UHGV virus genome: UHGV-0311442
Strand: one strand, 5' to 3'
DNA length: 64,000 bases
DNA from: a virus
Each line of letters starts with the position of its first letter. Position 1 is the first letter of the stretch. The position numbers and the translations under genes are program-made. Positions 11,515 to 61,654 of this stretch are shown one piece after another. The notes under the pieces are model-generated. The model made no database searches, was not told the DNA's origin, and saw only the letters and a program-made list of their open reading frames with translations.

Positions 11515-11522
11515 CAGTAATC

Positions 11523-11551
11523 GGGGGTAGTTACCTACCCCCTACTTTTTT
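11523..11551 (+). terminator. Rho-independent terminator after the giant SLT protein gene
   Basis: Stem gggggtag/ctaccccc with loop ttac, followed by tacTTTTTT. Confidence 0.75.
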
Positions 11552-11562
11552 AGAGGTATAAA

Positions 11563-19164: not shown

Positions 19165-19184
19165 GGTAAATTCTCCTTTAGGGT

Positions 19185-19224
19185 AAAAAATGAAAATACC
19201 CTACTCCTGTCTAGGAGTAGGGTA
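19185..19224 (-). terminator. Rho-independent terminator (minus strand), CCCTACTCC hairpin family
   Basis: Stem taccctactcct/aggagtagggta with loop gtct. The minus strand continues ttttcatttttt. Confidence 0.75.
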
Positions 19225-19228
19225 GGTG

Positions 19229-35456: not shown

Positions 35457-35500
35457 GTTGAATTCTCCTGTTAGTCTACATTAAAATAGTCGTAAACGTT

Positions 35501-35542
35501 AAAAAGAAAGACCCTCCTGTACCACGAAAGGGTACAGGAGGG
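35501..35542 (-). terminator. Rho-independent terminator (minus strand)
   Basis: 12-bp stem ccctcctgtacc/ggtacaggaggg. The minus strand continues tctttcttttt. Confidence 0.75.
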
Positions 35543-35546
35543 AGTG

Positions 35547-39129: not shown

Positions 39130-39147
39130 TTTAATACTCCTAAGGTG

Positions 39148-39184
39148 GAAAAAAGAATTAACCCTACTCCCGGAGGAGTAGGGG
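39148..39184 (-). terminator. Rho-independent terminator (minus strand), CCCTACTCC family
   Basis: Stem ccctactcc/ggagtaggg with loop cgga. The minus strand continues ttaattctttttt. Confidence 0.75.
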
Positions 39185-39191
39185 ATTTAAA

Positions 39192-40657: not shown

Positions 40658-40677
40658 AACTCTGTTCCTTTAGGGAA

Positions 40678-40719
40678 TGAAAATAAAAGTACCCCTTACT
40701 CCGTATAGGGTAAGGGGTA
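40678..40719 (-). terminator. Rho-independent terminator (minus strand)
   Basis: Stem tacccctta...taaggggta. The minus strand continues cttttattttc. Confidence 0.65.
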
Positions 40720-40723
40720 GAGG

Positions 40724-50183: not shown

Positions 50184-50230
50184 TGTTTTGCTCCTTTATG
50201 GCGTTAATGTATAAAGAGTTAATCGTAACT

Positions 50231-50257
50231 CTCACCTAAGTAATATATATCTGAAAT
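50231..50257 (-). promoter_or_regulatory. Promoter-like motif, class A (minus orientation: ATTTCAGATATATATTACTTAGGTGAG)
   Basis: Near-identical to 54517-54543. It lies directly downstream (minus sense) of terminator 50276-50308 and ~50 nt upstream of the ATG at 50183. The upstream flank is AT-rich. Confidence 0.5.
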
Positions 50258-50275
50258 TATTTTTAATATTAACGA

Positions 50276-50308
50276 ACAAAAAATAAAAGGTGGGGGTAAA
50301 CCCCCACC
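50276..50308 (-). terminator. Rho-independent terminator (minus strand)
   Basis: Stem ggtggggg/cccccacc with loop taaa. The minus strand continues ttttatttttt. Confidence 0.8.
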
Positions 50309-50312
50309 GATG

Positions 50313-54568: not shown

Positions 54569-55534
54569 ATGGAGAAATCCAGTGTTGATTTTTTCTCAAT
54601 TGGTATCGTCGCGGAAGACAAACCCCGTGGTACAGATCGGGTAAAAGTGATACCAATTGAAACTAACTTTGCTAACCCTACCGTGGTGCAATCTGTTTCT
54701 TCAGCAACTGAAAAGACGCATGAAACGTCTGGTGCAACAGATAACCTAACCATTAAGACGGGTAACACGATAACAGCAAAGTGGTGGAAGTTTAACTCCA
54801 ACCGAATTAATTCCCCTGACGTTAAACGAGAAGACTACGTTATCTTGTTACGTTTGGGGAAAACCGATATTTATTTTTGGATTGATCTGAACTTCGCTAA
54901 CGTTAAGCGATTAGAAGATGCGGTTTATGCGTGGTCGGCTGACCCTGAAAACCAAATGGCGGATGACTTGTCCAATGCGTATGTGTTGAACGTTTCGACG
55001 ATTGACAAACATATCACGCTAAGAACAAGTATGGTGAATGGCGAGAAAGCGGCGTGGTTGTTTCAGTTTGATAATGCAAACGGTACGTGGCAGTGCGTTG
55101 ACCATAAAGGAAACAAGTATTACATTAACTCGGTTGAAGATGATCTCGGGTTTGAGAATGCGATGCTTTCAAAAGTGAACATCAACAAAGAAGATGCGTT
55201 CATTTATTCAAAGCGTTCTATTAACCTGGAAACGAAAACGATTAATGAAAAATGCGAAGTTCGCAATACAGAAGCAGCGAAATCCGTTACGTTTAAAACA
55301 CAAACCTGGTTAACGGAAGCGGGAAGTTCGACAACGTTTAAAACGCCGAACTTTAAACAAGAAGGGAAGGAAGCGATGTTCACCGGTAATTTGGAAATCG
55401 CTAAGAACTTCAAATACGGTGGTACGGGTGAAGGTGTGGGTGTCTTTACGGTTAAAGATGCTGTTATTTCCGGTATTACCTTTAGCGTTCACATTCACCA
55501 AGGTAAACATGGTCCGACATCACCTCCGCAATAA
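54569..55534 (+). CDS. Baseplate central spike / cell-puncturing protein (gpV/gp5 OB-fold-like)
   Basis: Track ORF of 321 aa. The N-terminus FFSIGIVAEDKPRGTDRVKVIPIE is OB-fold-like. The C-terminus VHIHQGKHGPTSPPQ resembles the HxH...G.T..P apex motif of P2 gpV/Mu gp45-type spikes. It neighbours tail-fibre genes. Confidence 0.45.
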   Translation: MEKSSVDFFSIGIVAEDKPRGTDRVKVIPIETNFANPTVVQSVSSATEKTHETSGATDNLTIKTGNTITAKWWKFNSNRINSPDVKREDYVILLRLGKTDIYFWIDLNFANVKRLEDAVYAWSADPENQMADDLSNAYVLNVSTIDKHITLRTSMVNGEKAAWLFQFDNANGTWQCVDHKGNKYYINSVEDDLGFENAMLSKVNINKEDAFIYSKRSINLETKTINEKCEVRNTEAAKSVTFKTQTWLTEAGSSTTFKTPNFKQEGKEAMFTGNLEIAKNFKYGGTGEGVGVFTVKDAVISGITFSVHIHQGKHGPTSPPQ

Positions 55535-55740
55535 TTCCCCTTTTTCTTACGTTGTTTTTATATATTGTGACCTGACGTTGGTAAAACTTTTTATCAACAC
55601 TTTTCTTAAACCCATCGTTTAGTTAAGCAGGCCACTTTTTTCGCGCACTCTACTCCTCCCTACGGGGAGGAGCTATCTTATGCTTCGGTTGTAACACACG
55701 TCGGTCTTAGACCACCTTCCTTTTGAAATGGAGAGCTGTT

Positions 55741-55950
55741 ATGTCTATTAAAGAGTTCTCTTCTGCTGAGCATATTCCAGAAGAGTTTAAGAAAATCGGT
55801 AACGTTAGCGCCTTCGGCGATACCGTTGATCATGTAACTGGTAAGCTGGCTGCTGAAGCCGAAAAAATTGGCGGCGACGCATTCAAAGTTATCGGTATTT
55901 CCGGCAACAACAAACTGCACGGTAACGCGATTGTCTACAAAAAAGACTAA
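55741..55950 (+). CDS. DUF1471 (YdgH/BhsA/McbA-like) small protein lacking a signal peptide
   Basis: The track ORF starts at a TTG at 55723. The ATG at 55741 follows GGAGAGCTGTT. KKIGNVSAFGDTVDHVTGKLAAEAEKIGGDAFKVIGISGNNKLHGNAIVYKK matches the enterobacterial BhsA/YhcN-family core pattern (IG.VS..G...S.......LA.KA...GA....I.S.......L.G.A..YK). Confidence 0.6.
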   Translation: MSIKEFSSAEHIPEEFKKIGNVSAFGDTVDHVTGKLAAEAEKIGGDAFKVIGISGNNKLHGNAIVYKKD

Positions 55951-55953
55951 GCG

Positions 55954-56010
55954 AAAAAAAAACGTGCTACTCCTACCCTCTAAGAGGGTAGGAGGTTACT
56001 TTATTTTTTT
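55954..56010. terminator. Bidirectional hairpin terminator
   Basis: 11-bp stem ctcctaccctc/gagggtaggag with loop taa. An A9 run lies upstream and tttattttttt downstream. Confidence 0.8.
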
Positions 56011-57263
56011 CGTGCTCTAAAGCGATGCATTTCTAAATACACTTTTTCCCAGGGACCGAATGGACCAACGATTGCTTGAGCATCGTTAATCTTCTTCTGA
56101 TTATACCACCGGGCTTCACGAAAGACGTAGTTTTGACTGTCGAATTCGGTGGTGTTAAATACCCACTCACCTTCCTCCCACGTAGGCCAATAACCTACCG
56201 TCTTACCAAATCGATTATTTAAGTACCCTAATGGTTTTTCAGAATCAGGATCGTTAGGGTCCTTGAGATAACAACGTCCCCAAACTGCGTTATGGGATAC
56301 ACCCACAACCTCTTCTTCTAAATACGGATTATCTACCGTAAAGATAAAAGAGGATTCGTGGAGTAAAAGTGCCTTTAATGTTTCGGGGTTGCGAATACGT
56401 TGGACATTAGTAGGTGTTGATAAATCCCCCACACCGATGGCGTCCCAGTCGTAATAGCGACGGGTTTCCAGAACGGTCCGTGCAAGATCAAAATTCGGTA
56501 AAGAAATCATGATAGCACGGTCGGAGAAATAACCGCCCGGGGGCAACCAACGTAACATCCCGCCTATGACGAAACCCACGGTTTTTCCCGTAATAGATTC
56601 GGGCAGCGATATCATTAACGTAGAGTAATAGTCGCGTGTAGTGTCGAGCTTGTTTAGGGTAAGGTTGGCAATGGGGTAAGTTTTAACATTCCCTAACTGA
56701 CCAAAAACCATACAACCAATATCTGGCGTACAGGCTCTCCGTACGATTTTACCGGCCCCGGGTAATCGCACACCTACGGTATCCGTCTGGTGTGGTACCC
56801 ACTGACCGTTGATGTTGTAGAGCACACTATTACGGTATTTGTCCTTCCACTTGTCCTCACAAACGACGACAACGTCATCAGCATCGTCTAAGCTGAAATC
56901 TTGACTGTGATGGTACCCCGGCGGACACAGATATGTCTCGACAGGCACATCGGCATTAATTGATTGGTAGTGTGCCCAACTGAATTCCAGTTTCGGCAAT
57001 CCGGCCTTTAGAGTGGGGATGACGTTTCCGGCTTTTTCATTTAACCAATCTTGTAAAGTGTCTGTTCGGTTTTGTAGTTCGGCAAGATGGTATTGACTGA
57101 CTAACGTATAGTCTTTACCAAGTGCACTTAAACCGATCTCAAAGGTGTGGTAGTCTGAACACAACGTATTTAAGGGTTGCGTGACATCGATGGCTCCCCA
57201 GGTACGGGACTCTCGAGAGAAGCCAAAAGCGCTGTCGGGCCGCACTTGATAAGCAGTAGTCAC
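56001..57263 (-). CDS. Hypothetical protein (possibly baseplate/tail-associated by context)
   Basis: Track ORF of 420 aa with a GTG start after GAGGAAAAG. It is divergent from the tail-fibre operon. Confidence 0.55.
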   Translation of the reverse strand: MTTAYQVRPDSAFGFSRESRTWGAIDVTQPLNTLCSDYHTFEIGLSALGKDYTLVSQYHLAELQNRTDTLQDWLNEKAGNVIPTLKAGLPKLEFSWAHYQSINADVPVETYLCPPGYHHSQDFSLDDADDVVVVCEDKWKDKYRNSVLYNINGQWVPHQTDTVGVRLPGAGKIVRRACTPDIGCMVFGQLGNVKTYPIANLTLNKLDTTRDYYSTLMISLPESITGKTVGFVIGGMLRWLPPGGYFSDRAIMISLPNFDLARTVLETRRYYDWDAIGVGDLSTPTNVQRIRNPETLKALLLHESSFIFTVDNPYLEEEVVGVSHNAVWGRCYLKDPNDPDSEKPLGYLNNRFGKTVGYWPTWEEGEWVFNTTEFDSQNYVFREARWYNQKKINDAQAIVGPFGPWEKVYLEMHRFRARKK

Positions 57264-57331
57264 AGCTCTTTTCCTCTATAGATTCAAGTCATAGTATGAA
57301 CTTCGACGCCCACGGACTATAGGAGTAGAGA

Positions 57332-60300
57332 ATGGCTGTCGTCCTAGACCCACACTTCAAAAAACCGGGGAATAAAATAACCGGTGAAGCGGTCGCCGTC
57401 TTTGGTACGAAATACCGAATGTTGGTACCTGCCCACGCCCCTTTTTTCACCACATCCCTGGTGGTCAAGAGCGGCGGCAAAACACTGACCATAGGCGACG
57501 ATTACGTTATTACGCACCCGTACGAGACCGGTATGTTGCGCACAGCCTATCTCATTCACGGGATGATTTGGATTGTTAATGACAAATACAAATCGAATTT
57601 TACGGTAGATTACCACGCCGTTGGTTGTGGTCAGGCTACCCAACAACAGATTACCGCAGAACGCGAACTCAATAAAGATAAATACCCGTCTGCGTGTCAG
57701 TGGGACACCGTCATCGGGGACGTTTACTTTCCACCGGTCGATATCCAGTTCGATTGGGAGAATTGGAAAGGTGAACTGGAATTAATGCAGGCTATTGCTG
57801 GATTAGGCGATTCGTTAGGGGAAGTCGTGAGTCGGCTTAACCCCATCGCACGCAATACCCTGGATTTAGAATACCGTGCTAATAGCAAGGTTATCACTTC
57901 CGAGCAGTATGCCGTATACGACAATAAAGGTGGCTTCACCTACAACACTGCCCGTCATCGTTATAGCTTGAGTTATAAAACTGCAACCTTTAACGACTAC
58001 GCCCTGTCAGTGAAACACAGAATTCCTGCTATTCTGCCAGACATGACGAAATTGAATCCAAACGAACAGATCGATTGGATGCTCTGTTATGCTAACGGCG
58101 GTGCAAGTATTCTACGGCTGCAGCTAAAACAGCGCAAAATCTCACTGGTCTTAACGGTCGCTATTGGTAGCGGTTCAACAAACTACGATTATACGTTAAT
58201 CAACGGCTTAACTGACGATGAGTTAAAAAACGATATCGATTTTAGTGTAACCCGACAACCCGGAAACGGTGTTTACGTCATCGTAGTAAAAACAAATAAA
58301 CAGACCATGGATTACACATTCAATGTCGATACGCCGCCTGATGAGTTCTCGGCAGGGTATTCGAAAACGGATGTTGCTAAATGGTTGAAGTTTAAAACGA
58401 ACATTAATTTAAACTGGTATGCGGCCGAAAACGATTATATTCAAATTCGTTCTTTACCCGGCGCACCAGAACCTGACATCGATAACGATGTTTACCAGTT
58501 AATAGTCAAATACCATCAGTTAGTTGAGCAGCTGTATCGTAACGCGCCTGCACACGAACACGTTACACGTAAGGACAACCCGCACACCGATACGTGGGGT
58601 CCGATCCGTGCGTTAGAGCTGAATGGTATTGCGACAGATGCCGCGTTAGCTTACGGGAAGACGAAACAGCAGTTAACGGATTATGTTAATGCTAAGTACC
58701 CAACACAAGCAACGTTAACCGCACAGAAAAAACTGCTTCGTGAATCGCCGAGCAAGAACGTTAACGGCACGATTACCACACTTCCGGGTTTTACTTCGTT
58801 CACGACGGAAGTTGATCCGGTCTCGATGTCGAAATACGTGAGTCCTTATTTTAGCGAAAGCTATGTTAGTAGTGGTCACAGATATCACGGCGCGCTTCGT
58901 TATACAGGAGCGAAAAGCGGTTTCAGTGCTAACTTTAATGCAGTGCCTGCCAACCTGCAAGATATTGACTTTATTGTTACTGGACGTAAAACAGCGTCTG
59001 GTAATGAAGCGGTCGGTAGGGTTGGTTTACGTTTCTACGAAAATCCTGGTAGTAACTCCGGTAAGTACGTAGAGATTACCGGTGAAGTCTGGTCCGGTAC
59101 TCTTACTATCGAACTGGCGTTGCACGGTTACGGTAGTCCGGTACCGGCAGTTCGGTATATTTCACAAGCTCCTAACCCGGCAATACCGGATGGGGATTTT
59201 ACGCTACGTTTTCAACTGAAGCGTACAGGGAATGTGTTTGACGTCGTTATTACCGTAAACAGTAAAACGTATAGCGGTAGGATTAACTTCAATAACATGG
59301 ACGCTGCGTTAGAAGCATTAGAGAATCAGCACCACTTTAAATCGCTGATCAATAATGTTGCCGACGCCGTTACCATTAGTTCGCAAAACAAAGGTAACAC
59401 GGTTACCATTAAGAAAGCACCGGATGTTGTTGACGAGACACGTTTAGGTGCCCAGTTTGTTGTTGATCCGAAATCCATCAAGTTTATTGGCCAAGGTTCA
59501 ACTGATGTTAACGTGGCTAACAACCCCGTAACGTTCCAAGCAGGTACTAACCAGCTTGTGCTATACCCCGATGACCGAGGATTGTTGTGGCGTGGTAAAA
59601 AACTCTTAGACCCCACCACCGTAGCCCCGTATCTGCCAGGCAATACCGCAGGTGGCACAGGTTTATTCTACGCAAGTTCGACAACAACGGTTACGATCAC
59701 CGGTAGCGGGATAAAAGCCTCGCCGTTCGTAGCGACCTTTATTCTTCCTACCGCGACCGATACAACAGCTCTGGCAGCTTGGCAGTTGACCGATGAGTTC
59801 GGTACCGCTGAAAACCTTGCAGCAACGCCAGCACTGATTGAAAAACTCGATGCGGAGTTCACCGGTAAGTTAGTTGCAGTTAAATCGTACATTAACGACA
59901 TGCAACTTACCAGCTCGGTTACTATCGATAAGATTACCTTTGGTTTAGGTAACGTTGCGAATACGCCTGATGTCGATTTACCGATTTCTACAGCACAACG
60001 TGCGGAGTTAGATAAATACTCGCCTAAAGTTCACCAACACCCGTTTACCGCTTTTGGTACAGGGAACGCAACCACAGCGCAACGTGGTCTGATTAAATTT
60101 GGTCTGGATGTGGATGATGCGACTTTAGCACTCGATGGGAGTGTGGTAATGGCGCAGACTTCCCAGATTGAAAAATTGGAGCGCGCTGTCAGCGGTGTTG
60201 ACTCGGAGGCACGTCTTGACATTATACGTTTTGGTGAGTCTGGTAACGACTTAATAGACGTTACGGTCAAAGACAAAATTCTGGTCACGCTTCCAGCTTC

Positions 60301-61654
60301 AACGTATTTTATCGGTGGTGAAACATACGACGTTCCGTTGATGACGATTAACGTCAGTGAACGTTTTCCGAAATTGAATACAGAAATCTACGCAGGGATT
60401 TTTGTTGATATTGTTGACAACAAAGCGAAGTATATTGTCCACGACAGCTACAGTCAGGCTGAAACGGATACCATGACGCGTGTAGGGTTGATTGGTGTTA
60501 ACGACATTTCTGAGGTGTTCGTTACGGAGATGCGTAATGTCACACGGTTGGGCGATTTCCGTGAACTGAAAGATCATAAAGCCGATGACAACGCACACAT
60601 TCAACGCTCCGCGTCACGTGCAGCGCTTGGGTTAGCTAACTTAACCGTAGGTGCGCCTTGCTGGGCTTCTGGACTCCAGGCAGTAGTACGCGGTGAAGCA
60701 GATTGGCGTTATGTTGTCGATGGGCAGTATAAAGCCTTAGACGGGGTGAAATACGACCAGCTCGCATCCAAGTGGATTTTTGACGCGAAAGGGGTAAGCG
60801 ATAACCTGCACGGGTTTATCCACAGCATGTTCCCAGCTTTTAAGAACGCAGGAATGCGGGTAAGTTGGGAAACAGAAAGTAACGCAAAAACCGGTACGGT
60901 GCTAGAAACTGTTTTAGGATGCTGGAAAAACACCGACGGCGAGTTTATGCGGTTGTCGTTACTTATCACTCGTGGTTATCGTTTAACTGACAGCAACGGT
61001 GAATATTGTTACGCAGGGTTCGGTTTGAACTTCGGTAGCGGGAAATCGGTAGTGTTAGGTTTCACACCAACGAAGCGTGTTACGCCTGCACCGTGGAATA
61101 CGTTACAACCTGACGTAACGTTTACCCACACCCGTGCTGCAAATAACGCAATAACGTTTAACGCAACATTGACCTTAGCGGGCACTACGTATACCATCGT
61201 GGTGTTTTTATCTGCGACTGATAAATACGTAAGTTGCACGGCAGCAGGGGGAGCTACGCAGAAAATCCCTCTAACTGACCGTTTAACTGGGTTCAATATC
61301 GCACCTATCGTTAACGATCCGTATACCCCTATTTACTACGGTTTAGGGGGACTTTATGAGGATGAAGTTCGTGCCAACATCCGTTCTACGGCAGATAGCG
61401 CAACCGCGAATAAAGTCTATGGTACGTTGTTAGACTATATTAGCAACTATTCCTCATTAAATCGTGTGCGCGTTATGGAATTGACCGGTGTCAGTTCAGA
61501 CCCCGAAACGCTTAATGCGTTAGTGGCAACTGAATTTAATAACAACCTGGCGGATTACGCTGCGTTACCGATACCTCCTTATCTTAACAAGGAGCGCGTA
61601 ATGTCGTTTATCGACACCAACAATAAAGTGCAGGCGGTAATCATTCGCGATTAA
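57332..61654 (+). CDS. Large tail fibre / baseplate-fibre protein
   Basis: Track ORF of 1440 aa with an ATG after AGGAG. Tail-fibre hallmarks: ITFGLGNVANTPDVDLPIS and ATTAQRGLIKFG (cf. the LGLGNVxNTxDxxKPVS and ATxxxxGxxxLA motifs common in myovirus fibres). The composition is beta-rich (T/N/G/V). Confidence 0.6.
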   Translation: MAVVLDPHFKKPGNKITGEAVAVFGTKYRMLVPAHAPFFTTSLVVKSGGKTLTIGDDYVITHPYETGMLRTAYLIHGMIWIVNDKYKSNFTVDYHAVGCGQATQQQITAERELNKDKYPSACQWDTVIGDVYFPPVDIQFDWENWKGELELMQAIAGLGDSLGEVVSRLNPIARNTLDLEYRANSKVITSEQYAVYDNKGGFTYNTARHRYSLSYKTATFNDYALSVKHRIPAILPDMTKLNPNEQIDWMLCYANGGASILRLQLKQRKISLVLTVAIGSGSTNYDYTLINGLTDDELKNDIDFSVTRQPGNGVYVIVVKTNKQTMDYTFNVDTPPDEFSAGYSKTDVAKWLKFKTNINLNWYAAENDYIQIRSLPGAPEPDIDNDVYQLIVKYHQLVEQLYRNAPAHEHVTRKDNPHTDTWGPIRALELNGIATDAALAYGKTKQQLTDYVNAKYPTQATLTAQKKLLRESPSKNVNGTITTLPGFTSFTTEVDPVSMSKYVSPYFSESYVSSGHRYHGALRYTGAKSGFSANFNAVPANLQDIDFIVTGRKTASGNEAVGRVGLRFYENPGSNSGKYVEITGEVWSGTLTIELALHGYGSPVPAVRYISQAPNPAIPDGDFTLRFQLKRTGNVFDVVITVNSKTYSGRINFNNMDAALEALENQHHFKSLINNVADAVTISSQNKGNTVTIKKAPDVVDETRLGAQFVVDPKSIKFIGQGSTDVNVANNPVTFQAGTNQLVLYPDDRGLLWRGKKLLDPTTVAPYLPGNTAGGTGLFYASSTTTVTITGSGIKASPFVATFILPTATDTTALAAWQLTDEFGTAENLAATPALIEKLDAEFTGKLVAVKSYINDMQLTSSVTIDKITFGLGNVANTPDVDLPISTAQRAELDKYSPKVHQHPFTAFGTGNATTAQRGLIKFGLDVDDATLALDGSVVMAQTSQIEKLERAVSGVDSEARLDIIRFGESGNDLIDVTVKDKILVTLPASTYFIGGETYDVPLMTINVSERFPKLNTEIYAGIFVDIVDNKAKYIVHDSYSQAETDTMTRVGLIGVNDISEVFVTEMRNVTRLGDFRELKDHKADDNAHIQRSASRAALGLANLTVGAPCWASGLQAVVRGEADWRYVVDGQYKALDGVKYDQLASKWIFDAKGVSDNLHGFIHSMFPAFKNAGMRVSWETESNAKTGTVLETVLGCWKNTDGEFMRLSLLITRGYRLTDSNGEYCYAGFGLNFGSGKSVVLGFTPTKRVTPAPWNTLQPDVTFTHTRAANNAITFNATLTLAGTTYTIVVFLSATDKYVSCTAAGGATQKIPLTDRLTGFNIAPIVNDPYTPIYYGLGGLYEDEVRANIRSTADSATANKVYGTLLDYISNYSSLNRVRVMELTGVSSDPETLNALVATEFNNNLADYAALPIPPYLNKERVMSFIDTNNKVQAVIIRD

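What the first reader, a model, noticed from the sequence alone, without database searches (positions are those of the whole stretch)
55535..56010. Moron-like insertion of a host-type DUF1471 (BhsA/YhcN-family) gene, minus its signal peptide, between baseplate and tail genes
A 69-aa ORF matches the core of the enterobacterial YdgH/BhsA/McbA stress/biofilm family, whose members are normally exported. It starts directly at the mature-like domain (MSIKEFSSAEH...).

The ORF is set apart from the structural genes by a 206-bp upstream spacer. That spacer contains an AT-rich TTTTTATATATTGTGACC element (55555-55572) and a hairpin (55653-55672). A very strong bidirectional terminator follows the ORF.

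Its own regulatory signals, host-like origin and position between structural genes fit a moron. A cytoplasmic version of a periplasmic stress protein is odd and may act as a decoy or regulator.
Basis: partly seen in the sequence, partly recalled or inferred. Interest (0 to 1): 0.5.

Follow-up and report, generated by a model that had tools for sequence, protein, structure and literature searches.

The report
Signal-less DUF1471 gene of jumbo phages
The small gene is a real copy of a bacterial periplasmic stress-protein domain that has lost its export signal, but it is an old, already annotated gene found in every SPN3US-like giant phage and is probably linked to the tail, so it is not a recent add-on.

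Summary
Window 55741-55950 (+) encodes a 69-aa protein that matches Pfam PF07338 (DUF1471, YdgH/BhsA/McbA-like) above its threshold. It has no signal peptide. A 206-bp spacer with a hairpin lies upstream and a strong bidirectional terminator lies downstream.

The "moron" reading holds only partly. The window is an uncultured SPN3US-like jumbo phage. The gene is the ortholog of SPN3US gp172 (phrog_8068). RefSeq already labels gp172 "DUF1471 domain-containing protein", and other records label it "BhsA".

- It sits at the same site, between the gp173-like baseplate gene and the gp171-like essential tail gene, in all 62 related phage records.
- Its base composition and codon use match the rest of the phage, and it is under strong purifying selection.
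- The nearest outgroup, a Vibrio phage, has the same two flanking genes and no such gene. The gene was therefore captured from a host, but long ago.
- SPN3US gp172 was found by mass spectrometry in purified wild-type virions, but not in five other particle preparations.

New points from this work:
- Two roughly 45%-identical allelic types have been swapped between phage genera as a small cassette.
- The spacer carries conserved phiKZ-type promoter motifs and a conserved leader.

The function is unknown. I consider a minor tail or baseplate-associated protein the most likely role.

The parts
54569..55534 (+). Upstream gene: homolog of SPN3US gp173, a baseplate-assembly-like protein of 321 aa
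   Evidence: phrog_3216 'baseplate assembly protein', E=9e-114. It is syntenic in all relatives examined. SPN3US gp173 is absent from tailless particles.
55547..55571 (+). Promoter-like element P1: TTAC-N15-TGTGAC, starting 13 nt after the upstream stop codon.
   Evidence: TTAC-N15-T[A/G]T[G/A] holds the same position and spacing in 11 phages of four genera, while the sequence in between differs. It resembles the phiKZ motifs: TATG with G at +1, and a TTAC box near -24 (PMC4666361). It has not been tested experimentally.
55569..55652 (+). Conserved leader, which is also the 3'UTR of the upstream gene. It contains a hairpin at 55577-55598 and the near-invariant GCCACTTTTTTC at 55631-55642.
   Evidence: Alignment A4. 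The fold has z = -3.1. Close relative L016 has a compensatory A-U to G-C change in the 55577-55598 hairpin. There is no Rfam match. Its function is unknown.
55653..55672 (+). GC-rich internal hairpin of the phage's terminator type, without a clean T-run in this phage
   Evidence: Nine of the ten other phages in the spacer alignment have a hairpin at the equivalent place, with unrelated stem sequences and usually a T-run; SPN3US has none.
55679..55682 (+). Promoter-like element P2: a TATG core, which would give a 5'UTR of about 58 nt
   Evidence: TATG(C) is invariant in 11 of 11 aligned spacers. In 10 of them a TTTAC box lies 15-16 nt upstream. In the window that box is replaced by CTAC in the hairpin loop. 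The motif follows phiKZ late promoters.
55730..55733 (+). Ribosome-binding site GGAG, 7 nt before the ATG
   Evidence: Sequence. Conserved as GGAG or GAGG in all relatives.
55741..55950 (+). 69-aa DUF1471 protein without a signal peptide; ortholog of SPN3US gp172 (phrog_8068)
   Evidence: Pfam 38.2 bits. phrog_8068 E=4.5e-32. AlphaFold2 pLDDT 89, with top fold matches to DUF1471 structures. dN/dS 0.01-0.27.
55954..56010 (.). Bidirectional intrinsic terminator shared by the two convergent genes: A9 run, 11-bp stem at 55970-55994, T7 run
   Evidence: It is conserved in relatives, with compensatory stem changes.
56001..57263 (-). Convergent downstream gene: homolog of SPN3US gp171, an essential tail-associated virion protein of 420 aa
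   Evidence: 77% identical to SPN3US gp171. gp171 is essential and tail-associated (PMC5105663).
57288..57301 (.). Palindrome GGTCATAGTATGAAC: back-to-back TATG cores for the divergent gp171-like and gp170-like genes. Used here as a control for the promoter motif.
   Evidence: Invariant in 10 of 10 phages compared.

Best explanation
**What it is.** The ORF is the local ortholog of SPN3US gp172. It is a single DUF1471 domain that an ancestor of the enterobacterial SPN3US-like jumbo phages captured from a host periplasmic-protein gene. The capture dropped it between the baseplate gene (gp173-like) and the essential tail gene (gp171-like), and it lost its signal peptide.

**How it most likely works (inferred).**
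- Without a signal peptide, the protein stays in the cytoplasm, where tails and baseplates are assembled.
- It is transcribed as its own short unit from a phiKZ-type TATG promoter and stops at a bidirectional terminator.
- Its most likely role is a low-copy, perhaps loosely bound, tail or baseplate-associated virion protein, or an accessory factor of that assembly.
- Placed there, a domain that normally works in the enterobacterial envelope would face the host envelope at infection.
- Two old allelic types are swapped between phage genera. This suggests the protein's partner varies, for example a host factor or a fast-evolving tail protein.

**Shown versus inferred.** Shown here: family identity, lack of signal peptide, fixation across the clade, absence from the outgroup, purifying selection and cassette exchange. 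Taken from the literature: virion detection, for SPN3US only. Inferred: the promoters, the location in the tail and the function.
For: - **Identity.** Pfam PF07338 above threshold. phrog_8068 full-length match at E=4.5e-32. A PDB profile hit to 2MA4/2NOC (Salmonella YahO by my own knowledge of Eletsky 2014; the tool labels it only 'putative periplasmic protein') at E of about 1e-11. An AlphaFold2 model with pLDDT 89 whose best fold matches are DUF1471 structures 4EVU, 2M2J, 2MA8, 2JNA and 2NOC, plus RcsF, at TM 0.73-0.85.
- **No signal peptide.** All 15 phage homologs examined lack one. In a search of 1.84 billion representatives, the four phage-type clusters start the domain at residue 1, while the bacterial hits carry 22-35 aa leaders.
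- **Fixation and synteny.** 60 records by tblastn plus Caitlin's 2 records make 62 of 62 records that have the gp171 homolog. Gene order is the same in five genera.
- **Ancient capture.** Vibrio phage pVa-21 has the gp173 homolog (42% identity) and the gp171 homolog (27%) convergent, with a 318-bp gap and no DUF1471 ORF.
- **Adapted to the phage.** GC and codon use match, with a CAI-like index of 0.78 against 0.72 +/- 0.04 for other genes. dN/dS is 0.04 against the Enterobacter ludwigii 'plasmid' copy and 0.01-0.27 in other pairs.
- **Virion link.** SPN3US gp172 had 4 unique peptides, 81% coverage and spectral count per mass of 0.86, compared with 0.93 for the portal, in CsCl-purified virions (PMC5694885). 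Its neighbours gp171, gp173 and gp168-170 are tail or baseplate proteins that are missing from tailless particles.
- **Own transcription unit.** TATG and TTAC motifs and the terminator are conserved in all aligned spacers. The same TATG core is invariant at the neighbouring divergent promoter.
- **Cassette exchange.** SPAsTU has Seoulvirus flanks but an Erskinevirus-type 5'UTR and ORF. Caitlin has Machinavirus flanks but an SPN3US-type ORF.
Against: - **Weak virion evidence.** gp172 gave only 6 spectra. It was not found in the 47(am1) particles or in any of the four particle preparations in Thomas 2016 Table S4, where gp171 and gp173 were found. The authors themselves say its status is unresolved and that the low-mass gel region may have been missed.
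- **Distant ortholog.** The window protein is only 44% identical to gp172 and belongs to the other allelic type.
- **No location or structure data.** Nothing places the protein in the tail, and no baseplate structure exists for this clade.
- **Promoter calls rest on conservation only.** TATG-type motifs are not enriched in the window's non-coding DNA. The window lacks the TTAC box of P2.
Confidence: 0.5

Rival explanations
1. The protein is non-structural, is expressed on its own and stays in the infected cell's cytoplasm. There it interferes with host physiology, for example as a decoy for a partner of the host's DUF1471 or RcsF-type envelope-stress proteins. Its occasional detection in virions would be contamination by an abundant small protein.
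For: - It has its own promoter-like motifs and terminator.
- It moves between phage genera as a cassette, with two old allelic types, as host-interaction genes often do.
- It was not detected in five of six SPN3US particle preparations.
- Its codon adaptation is high, which fits an abundant soluble protein.
- Wellington-type phages have a second signal-less paralog with a long acidic disordered tail, which does not look like a virion building block.
Against: - The known partners and sites of action of bacterial DUF1471 proteins are periplasmic (PMC4092069), so a cytoplasmic decoy has no obvious target.
- The gene is fixed inside the tail and baseplate module in 62 of 62 records.
- It was detected with 81% sequence coverage in CsCl-purified wild-type virions.
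- Its promoter-like motif is of the TATG (late) type, the same as at the neighbouring structural genes.
Confidence: 0.28
2. The protein is a tail or baseplate assembly chaperone or scaffold. It acts in the cytoplasm on neighbouring gene products (gp173-like, gp171-like or the gp168-170 fibre and baseplate proteins) and is mostly released before the virion is complete.
For: - It lies within the tail module and has the same conservation pattern as its neighbours.
- Its trace-level, variable detection in particles is typical of assembly factors.
- The allele swaps could track co-evolving tail proteins.
Against: - No DUF1471 protein is known to act as a chaperone.
- The flanking gp171 and gp173 do not share the allele pattern. 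This argues against tight co-evolution with them.
- There is no direct evidence for this role.
Confidence: 0.15
3. The ORF is a chance or decaying reading frame, and the functional element here is the RNA or the regulatory region.
For: The spacer is unusually long and conserved for a gene-dense genome.
Against: - dN/dS is 0.01-0.27.
- The full-length ORF is kept in all relatives.
- The exact protein occurs in 876 index blocks of metagenome assemblies.
- Peptides covering 81% of the ortholog were observed.
Confidence: 0.01

Closest known systems
SPN3US gp172 (SPN3US_0172; RefSeq YP_009153466.1 'DUF1471 domain-containing protein'); PHROG phrog_8068; labelled 'putative multiple stress resistance protein BhsA' in Erwinia phages Stratton, Kwan and Wellington and in Salmonella phage SPAsTU
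   Same: It has the same length (66-73 aa) and the same domain, and it lacks a signal peptide. It sits in the same position between the gp173-like and gp171-like genes, with the same long upstream spacer and downstream bidirectional terminator.
   Different: It is only 44% identical to gp172 itself. The window carries the other allelic type, which is 72-80% identical to the SPAsTU, Erskinevirus and Machinavirus copies. In the window the internal hairpin replaces the TTAC box of the proximal promoter-like element.
Enterobacterial single-domain DUF1471 proteins (BhsA/YcfR, YbiJ, YahO, McbA, YhcN, SrfN; Pfam PF07338)
   Same: It shares the domain sequence motif and the beta-beta-alpha-beta-beta, RcsF-like fold. 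The phage hosts belong to the same bacterial order that owns the family.
   Different: It has no Sec signal peptide, so it is not exported by that route. It scores below every NCBIfam equivalog cut-off; BhsA gives 46.8 bits against 90. It is therefore not an ortholog of any named member, and no donor lineage can be identified. It is encoded in a virulent phage's tail module.
Morons of temperate phages (for example lambda bor and lom, or HK97 gp15-type insertions)
   Same: It is a small host-derived gene set between structural genes, with its own promoter-like signals and terminator. It can be exchanged as a cassette.
   Different: It is fixed in the whole clade rather than variably present. 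It has no compositional signature of recent arrival. The phages are virulent, so there is no lysogen to benefit. The ortholog has been reported in virions.

Membership tests
DUF1471 / YdgH_BhsA-like (Pfam PF07338) | Profile match above the curated gathering score | tested here: met
   38.2 bits against a cut-off of 27, E=1.4e-9, covering profile positions 2-55 of 55.
DUF1471 / YdgH_BhsA-like (Pfam PF07338) | Mixed alpha+beta fold similar to RcsF (Eletsky 2014, PMC4092069) | tested here: met
   AlphaFold2 pLDDT 89.4 with strand-strand-helix-strand-strand order. Top Foldseek PDB hits are 4EVU and 2M2J (YdgH domains), RcsF 2Y1B, 2MA8 and 2JNA (SrfN), and 2NOC, at TM 0.73-0.85.
DUF1471 / YdgH_BhsA-like (Pfam PF07338) | N-terminal signal sequence that targets the protein to the periplasm (true of most members) | tested here: not met
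   There is no hydrophobic N-terminus and the domain starts at about residue 9. All 15 phage homologs lack a signal sequence. Bacterial hits have 22-35 aa leaders.
DUF1471 / YdgH_BhsA-like (Pfam PF07338) | Restricted to Enterobacteriaceae / Enterobacterales | tested here: met
   Every phage that carries the gene infects Salmonella, Erwinia, Escherichia, Cronobacter or Proteus (and probably Enterobacter). The Vibrio-phage outgroup lacks it.
BhsA (NCBIfam NF047859 equivalog), the name used in several phage records | Score at or above the equivalog cut-off of 90 bits | tested here: not met
   46.8 bits, matching profile positions 30-85 only. The SPN3US copy scores best against McbA (40.9 bits against 110). 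The 'BhsA' label is an over-annotation.
SPN3US gp172 / phrog_8068 phage family | Full-length profile match | tested here: met
   E=4.5e-32, residues 1-69 against profile positions 1-70 of 70.
SPN3US gp172 / phrog_8068 phage family | Conserved position between the gp173-like and gp171-like genes | tested here: met
SPN3US gp172 / phrog_8068 phage family | Virion association | not testable with these tools
   The only evidence is from the literature and for SPN3US alone. It was detected in wild-type virions and not detected in five other particle preparations.
Moron | Own promoter and terminator, independent of the flanking operon | tested here: inconclusive
   The terminator is confirmed. The promoter-like TTAC-N15-T[A/G]TG and TATG motifs are conserved across genera, but they are not enriched in the window and no transcript data exist.
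Moron | Present in some phages and absent from otherwise closely related ones | tested here: not met
   Present in 62 of 62 SPN3US-like records. It is absent only from a distant outgroup.
Moron | Base composition or codon use unlike the surrounding phage genes | tested here: not met
   GC is 43.3% against 43.9 +/- 2.3% for other genes. The CAI-like index is 0.78 against 0.72 +/- 0.04.
Moron | Benefits the lysogen, is expressed from the prophage and is dispensable for lytic growth | not testable with these tools
   From general knowledge, the relatives are virulent, nucleus-forming jumbo phages. No knockout of this gene has been reported.

The most novel reading that the evidence does not exclude
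The protein is a virion-borne mimic of the host's own periplasmic DUF1471 / RcsF-like envelope proteins. It would be made without a signal peptide so that it can be built into the tail tip. The contracting tail would then deliver it into the periplasm, where it would engage the partner of its cellular homologues, such as an outer-membrane protein, a porin or an envelope-stress sensor, to help penetration or blunt the envelope-stress response. The two allelic types exchanged between phage genera would reflect an arms race with that partner.

A second, independent novelty could be that the conserved leader between the distal promoter-like element and the internal terminator is a small regulatory RNA of the tail module.
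Probability: 0.12. Interest if true: 0.65.

Novelty: new member of a known kind. Interest (0 to 1): 0.3.

Why it matters
As found, this is a new ortholog of an already annotated jumbo-phage protein family of unknown function, so it is of modest interest.

It is still a clean example of a virulent phage domesticating a host periplasmic domain: the signal peptide was lost, the gene became fixed in the tail module, and it evolved its own regulation.

Two results give concrete experimental handles in the SPN3US genetic system:
- The two-allele cassette exchange between phage genera.
- The unresolved virion status of SPN3US gp172.

If the protein does act on the host envelope from the virion, it could also shed light on what DUF1471 proteins do in bacteria. 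That question has been open since the first E. coli genome was sequenced.

Tried and rejected
- **AT-rich element as a repeated promoter.** It occurs once in the window at up to 3 mismatches. Its AT-rich part is not conserved in relatives; only the TTAC and TGTGAC parts are.
- **Sigma-70 promoter scan.** Nothing was found in the spacer, and the region has fewer hits than shuffled sequence.
- **General enrichment of the promoter motifs.** TTAC-N15/16-TATG gives 6 hits against 4.5 expected. TATG, TATGA[AC], T[AG]TGAC and TATGC are not enriched in non-coding DNA. The motifs therefore cannot be validated from this window alone.
- **Rfam scan of 55300-56200 at E up to 5.** Only chance-level hits, none in the spacer.
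- **GCCACTTTTTT as a repeated motif in the window.** Not above chance.
- **Donor lineage.** The best bacterial matches are only E of about 1e-10, and the best named family differs between the two phage alleles (BhsA versus McbA). No donor can be named.
- **Literature.** No paper links SPN3US-like phages with DUF1471 or BhsA. The time-course proteomics paper on SPN3US (Weintraub 2019) is not held in the library. I found no tail or baseplate structure for this clade.
- **Word-indexed protein search.** It returned only 7 close phage-type proteins. The exhaustive profile search was needed to reach bacterial relatives.
- **Apparent absence from phage Caitlin.** This was a tblastn sensitivity miss; the gene is there as gp182.
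Full report
**1. What is in the sequence**

The window has an ORF from ATG 55741 to the stop at 55948-55950 on the + strand. It encodes 69 aa (MSIKEFSSAEH...IVYKKD), 7.4 kDa, pI 6.3. GGAG at 55730-55733 lies 7 nt upstream of the ATG. The only possible in-frame extension is a TTG at 55723, which would add six non-hydrophobic residues.

The protein matches Pfam PF07338 (YdgH/BhsA/McbA-like, DUF1471) at 38.2 bits against a gathering score of 27, over nearly the whole profile.

- The spacer 55535-55740 is 206 bp.
- The string TTTTTATATATTGTGACC is at 55555-55572.
- The hairpin is at 55653-55672.
- The terminator has its stem at 55970-55994, flanked by A9 and T7 runs. It folds at about -21 kcal/mol on either strand, with z of about -4.3.

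**2. Genomic context**

The window is an SPN3US-like jumbo phage. Nucleotide identity to Seoulvirus and Erskinevirus genomes is about 73%.
- The upstream gene (54569-55534) matches phrog_3216, 'baseplate assembly protein', and is the homolog of SPN3US gp173.
- The convergent downstream gene (56001-57263, - strand) is the homolog of SPN3US gp171.
- The next gene (57332-61654) is a gp170-like virion protein.

In SPN3US, gp171 is essential and tail-associated. gp171, gp173 and gp168-170 are all missing from tailless particles (PMC5105663; PMC5694885).

The exact 69-aa protein occurs in 876 index blocks of metagenome assemblies, on contigs of about 223-228 kb. A 92%-identical copy with the same gene order lies on a 222-kb circular 'plasmid' of Enterobacter ludwigii. 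The phage is therefore common, uncultured, and probably infects Enterobacter.

**3. The gene is an old, fixed member of the clade**

A tblastn search finds one copy in each of 60 phage records, all of them SPN3US-like. The gp171 homolog is found in 62 such records. The two extra records are phage Caitlin, which does have the gene as gp182 but fell below the tblastn threshold. The gene is therefore present in 62 of 62 records.

Gene order is the same in Seoulvirus, Erskinevirus, Machinavirus, Wellingtonvirus and Derbicusvirus: gp173-like gene, a long spacer of 200-400 bp, the DUF1471 gene, then the convergent gp171-like gene.

SPN3US gp172 is the ortholog. RefSeq already calls it 'DUF1471 domain-containing protein', and several GenBank records call it 'BhsA'.

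The gene shows no sign of recent arrival:
- GC content is 43.3%, against 43.9 +/- 2.3% for other genes.
- The codon-adaptation index is 0.78, against 0.72 +/- 0.04.

It is under strong purifying selection, with dN/dS of 0.01-0.27 in the computable pairs. Against the Enterobacter ludwigii copy, which was not selected by exact-protein lookup, dN/dS is 0.04.

**4. Host origin and loss of the signal peptide**

A profile search of 1.84 billion representative proteins gave 91 hits.
- The top four clusters are 68-78 aa, and their domain starts at residue 1. These are the phage type.
- The great majority of the remaining hits are 80-110-aa proteins whose domain starts at about residue 27-35; a few are shorter, apparently truncated sequences or long multi-domain proteins. 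Most of those whose sequences I read carry an obvious Sec signal sequence.

All 15 phage homologs examined lack a signal peptide.

The family is described as exclusive to Enterobacteriaceae and mostly periplasmic (PMC4092069). All carrier phages infect Enterobacterales.

In the nearest outgroup, Vibrio phage pVa-21, the gp173 homolog (42% identity) and the gp171 homolog (27%) are convergent and adjacent. The 318-bp gap between them holds no DUF1471 ORF.

The gene was therefore captured from a host and inserted at this exact site, but at the base of the enterobacterial clade.

No donor can be named. The best bacterial E-value is about 1e-10. The best named NCBIfam family is BhsA for the window allele and McbA for the SPN3US allele, and both score far below the equivalog cut-offs. 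The 'BhsA' name in the databases is therefore an over-annotation.

**5. Structure**

AlphaFold2 gives a confident model, with pLDDT 89 and strand-strand-helix-strand-strand order. Its best PDB fold matches are the solved DUF1471 domains (YdgH 4EVU and 2M2J; SrfN 2MA8 and 2JNA; 2NOC) and RcsF, at TM 0.73-0.85.

By sequence profile, the closest solved protein is 2MA4/2NOC at E of about 1e-11. I recognise this as Salmonella YahO from Eletsky et al. 2014. That identification is my own knowledge, because the tool gives only 'putative periplasmic protein'.

The residues that are invariant among the phage copies are the core motif of the family.

**6. Evidence on function**

The only experimental data concern SPN3US gp172.
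- Ali et al. 2017 detected it in CsCl-purified wild-type virions and called it the smallest virion protein. They found 4 unique peptides, 6 spectra and 81% coverage. Spectral count per mass was 0.86, against 0.93 for the portal.
- It was absent from 47(am1) particles, and the authors said its status needs further work.
- In Thomas et al. 2016 Table S4 it is absent from all four particle preparations, whereas gp171 and gp173 are listed.

Virion association is therefore suggested but not settled. I found no tail or baseplate structure for this clade.

**7. Regulation**

I aligned the spacers of 11 phages from four genera. The sequences are otherwise poorly alignable, but they share a common architecture:
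- (a) TTAC-N15-T[A/G]T[G/A] starts within a few bases of the upstream stop codon in the relatives and 13 nt after it in the window. In the window, TTAC is at 55547-55550 and TGTGAC at 55566-55571.
- (b) A leader follows whose stems differ between phages. It ends in a nearly invariant G(C/T)(C/T)ACTTTTTTC (window 55631-55642).
- (c) A GC-rich hairpin of the phage's usual terminator type comes next. It has unrelated stem sequences in different phages and is absent only in SPN3US. In the window it is at 55653-55672.
- (d) A TTTAC box is followed 15-16 nt later by an invariant TATG(C), at 55679-55682 in the window. In the window the box is replaced by CTAC in the hairpin loop.
- (e) A 5'UTR of 45-80 nt and the ribosome-binding site complete the unit.

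In phiKZ, late promoters have TATG with the G as +1, and middle promoters have AAanTTACc near -24 (PMC4666361). As an internal control, the divergent gp171/gp170 intergenic region carries the invariant palindrome GGTCATA(G/A)TATGA(A/C)C in 10 of 10 phages compared, which amounts to back-to-back TATG cores.

Within the window these short motifs are not enriched in non-coding DNA. The same is reported for phiKZ. The promoter assignments therefore rest only on conservation across genera.

The downstream terminator is conserved, with compensatory stem changes. The gene thus looks like its own small transcription unit, probably of the middle or late class. This is inference, since no transcript data exist.

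**8. Cassette exchange**

The phage DUF1471 proteins fall into two deep allelic types that are about 45% identical.
- Type A: the window, SPAsTU, Erskinevirus, Machina and ChrisDB.
- Type B: SPN3US, pEa_SNUABM_29 and Caitlin.
- Wellingtonvirus and Derbicusvirus copies are further forms.

The distribution of the two types conflicts with the flanking genes.
- SPAsTU has Seoulvirus-like flanks (gp171 85-89% identical to SPN3US and SNUABM_29). Its DUF1471 is 90% identical to Erskinevirus and only 41-43% to SPN3US and SNUABM_29.
- Caitlin has Machinavirus flanks (gp171 72-85% identical). Its DUF1471 is 78% identical to SPN3US and only 46-49% to Machina and ChrisDB.

Sliding-window comparison places the swapped block at about 270 bp in SPAsTU (the 5'UTR plus the ORF) and at roughly the ORF alone in Caitlin.

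This is the part of the 'moron-like' idea that survives. The unit is modular and mobile within the clade, as genes that face a variable partner often are.

Wellington-type phages also carry a second signal-less paralog of 186 aa, with a long acidic, probably disordered tail.

**9. Interpretation**

- Most likely (about 0.5): a minor tail or baseplate-associated virion protein. It folds in the cytoplasm because the signal peptide was lost, is expressed from its own TATG-type promoter, and places an envelope-type domain at the host interface.
- Rival (about 0.28): a non-structural, host-directed cytoplasmic protein.
- Rival (about 0.15): a transient assembly factor of the tail module.
- Rival (about 0.01): not a real gene. 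The selection and peptide data make this untenable.

These options can be separated by targeted proteomics of virions, tails and tailless heads, by a knockout, and by 5'-end-resolved RNA-seq.

**10. Verdict**

- Supported: host-derived, signal-less, inserted between the baseplate and tail genes, and self-contained.
- Not supported: that the gene is accessory or recently inserted; it is fixed in every relative. Whether its product is non-structural is unresolved, since the SPN3US ortholog was detected in virions only once.

It is a new ortholog of a known, annotated phage family of unknown function, so overall interest is modest.

Noticed in passing
window 55547-55675 (and the equivalent spacers in L001-L011 and L022): A conserved leader lies between the gp173-like stop codon and the internal hairpin. 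It consists of TTAC-N15-T[A/G]TGAC, variable stem-loops, a near-invariant G(C/T)(C/T)ACTTTTTTC, and a terminator-type hairpin. Compensatory changes occur in L016 (hairpin 55577-55598) and in Caitlin (ACTATTT..AAATAGT against ACTTTTTT..AAAAAAGT in ChrisDB). It could be a 5'UTR- or 3'UTR-derived small RNA or an attenuator, like the short transcripts reported in 201phi2-1 and phiKZ (PMC11512511). It has no Rfam match.
   Followed up: partly
L003 (SPAsTU) and L022 (Caitlin) compared with L001, L005, L007, L008 and L011: Two DUF1471 alleles about 45% identical are distributed in conflict with the flanking gp171 and gp173 genes. This shows that a cassette of about 210-270 bp has been exchanged between phage genera.
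   Followed up: yes
L019 = NZ_CP134650.1, 222,441-bp circular 'plasmid unnamed1' of Enterobacter ludwigii 51A:C: This 'plasmid' has the same gene order as the window (genes of 321, 69, 420 and at least 535 aa, the last cut off at the end of the fetched locus where the window has its 1440-aa gene), and its DUF1471 is 92% identical. That points to Enterobacter as the host and perhaps to a carrier state.
   Followed up: partly
L015-L018 (metagenome contigs of about 223-228 kb): The exact 69-aa protein is listed in 876 index blocks of public assemblies. The window's phage lineage is therefore widespread in metagenomes although no cultured isolate is in the phage collection.
   Followed up: no
window 57288-57301 and the same intergenic region in nine relatives: The invariant palindrome GGTCATA(G/A)TATGA(A/C)C lies between the divergent gp171-like and gp170-like genes. 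It amounts to back-to-back phiKZ-type TATG cores and is a good candidate for a bidirectional late promoter in this clade.
   Followed up: partly
L009 2087-2647 (Wellington gp189) and L010 2105-2671: Wellingtonvirus phages carry a second signal-less DUF1471 paralog just downstream. It is 186-188 aa, with the domain at the N-terminus and a long acidic, low-complexity tail. They also have an extra 52-aa ORF in the upstream spacer.
   Followed up: partly
window 50184-50312 (- strand orientation): This AT-rich intergenic region contains ATATATATTAC downstream of a terminator.
   Followed up: no
window intergenic regions, e.g. 19165-19228, 35457-35546, 39130-39191, 40658-40723, 11515-11562: Many terminators share a CCTACTCC...GGAGTAGG-type stem followed by TTTTTTAC. 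This points to a phage-specific terminator family, similar to the terminator motifs reported for 201phi2-1 and phiKZ (PMC11512511).
   Followed up: no
L020 4740-5057 (Vibrio phage pVa-21): In the outgroup, the gap at the equivalent site is 318 bp, GA-rich and without a credible ORF, but it ends in a similar bidirectional terminator. What it encodes, if anything, is unknown.
   Followed up: no
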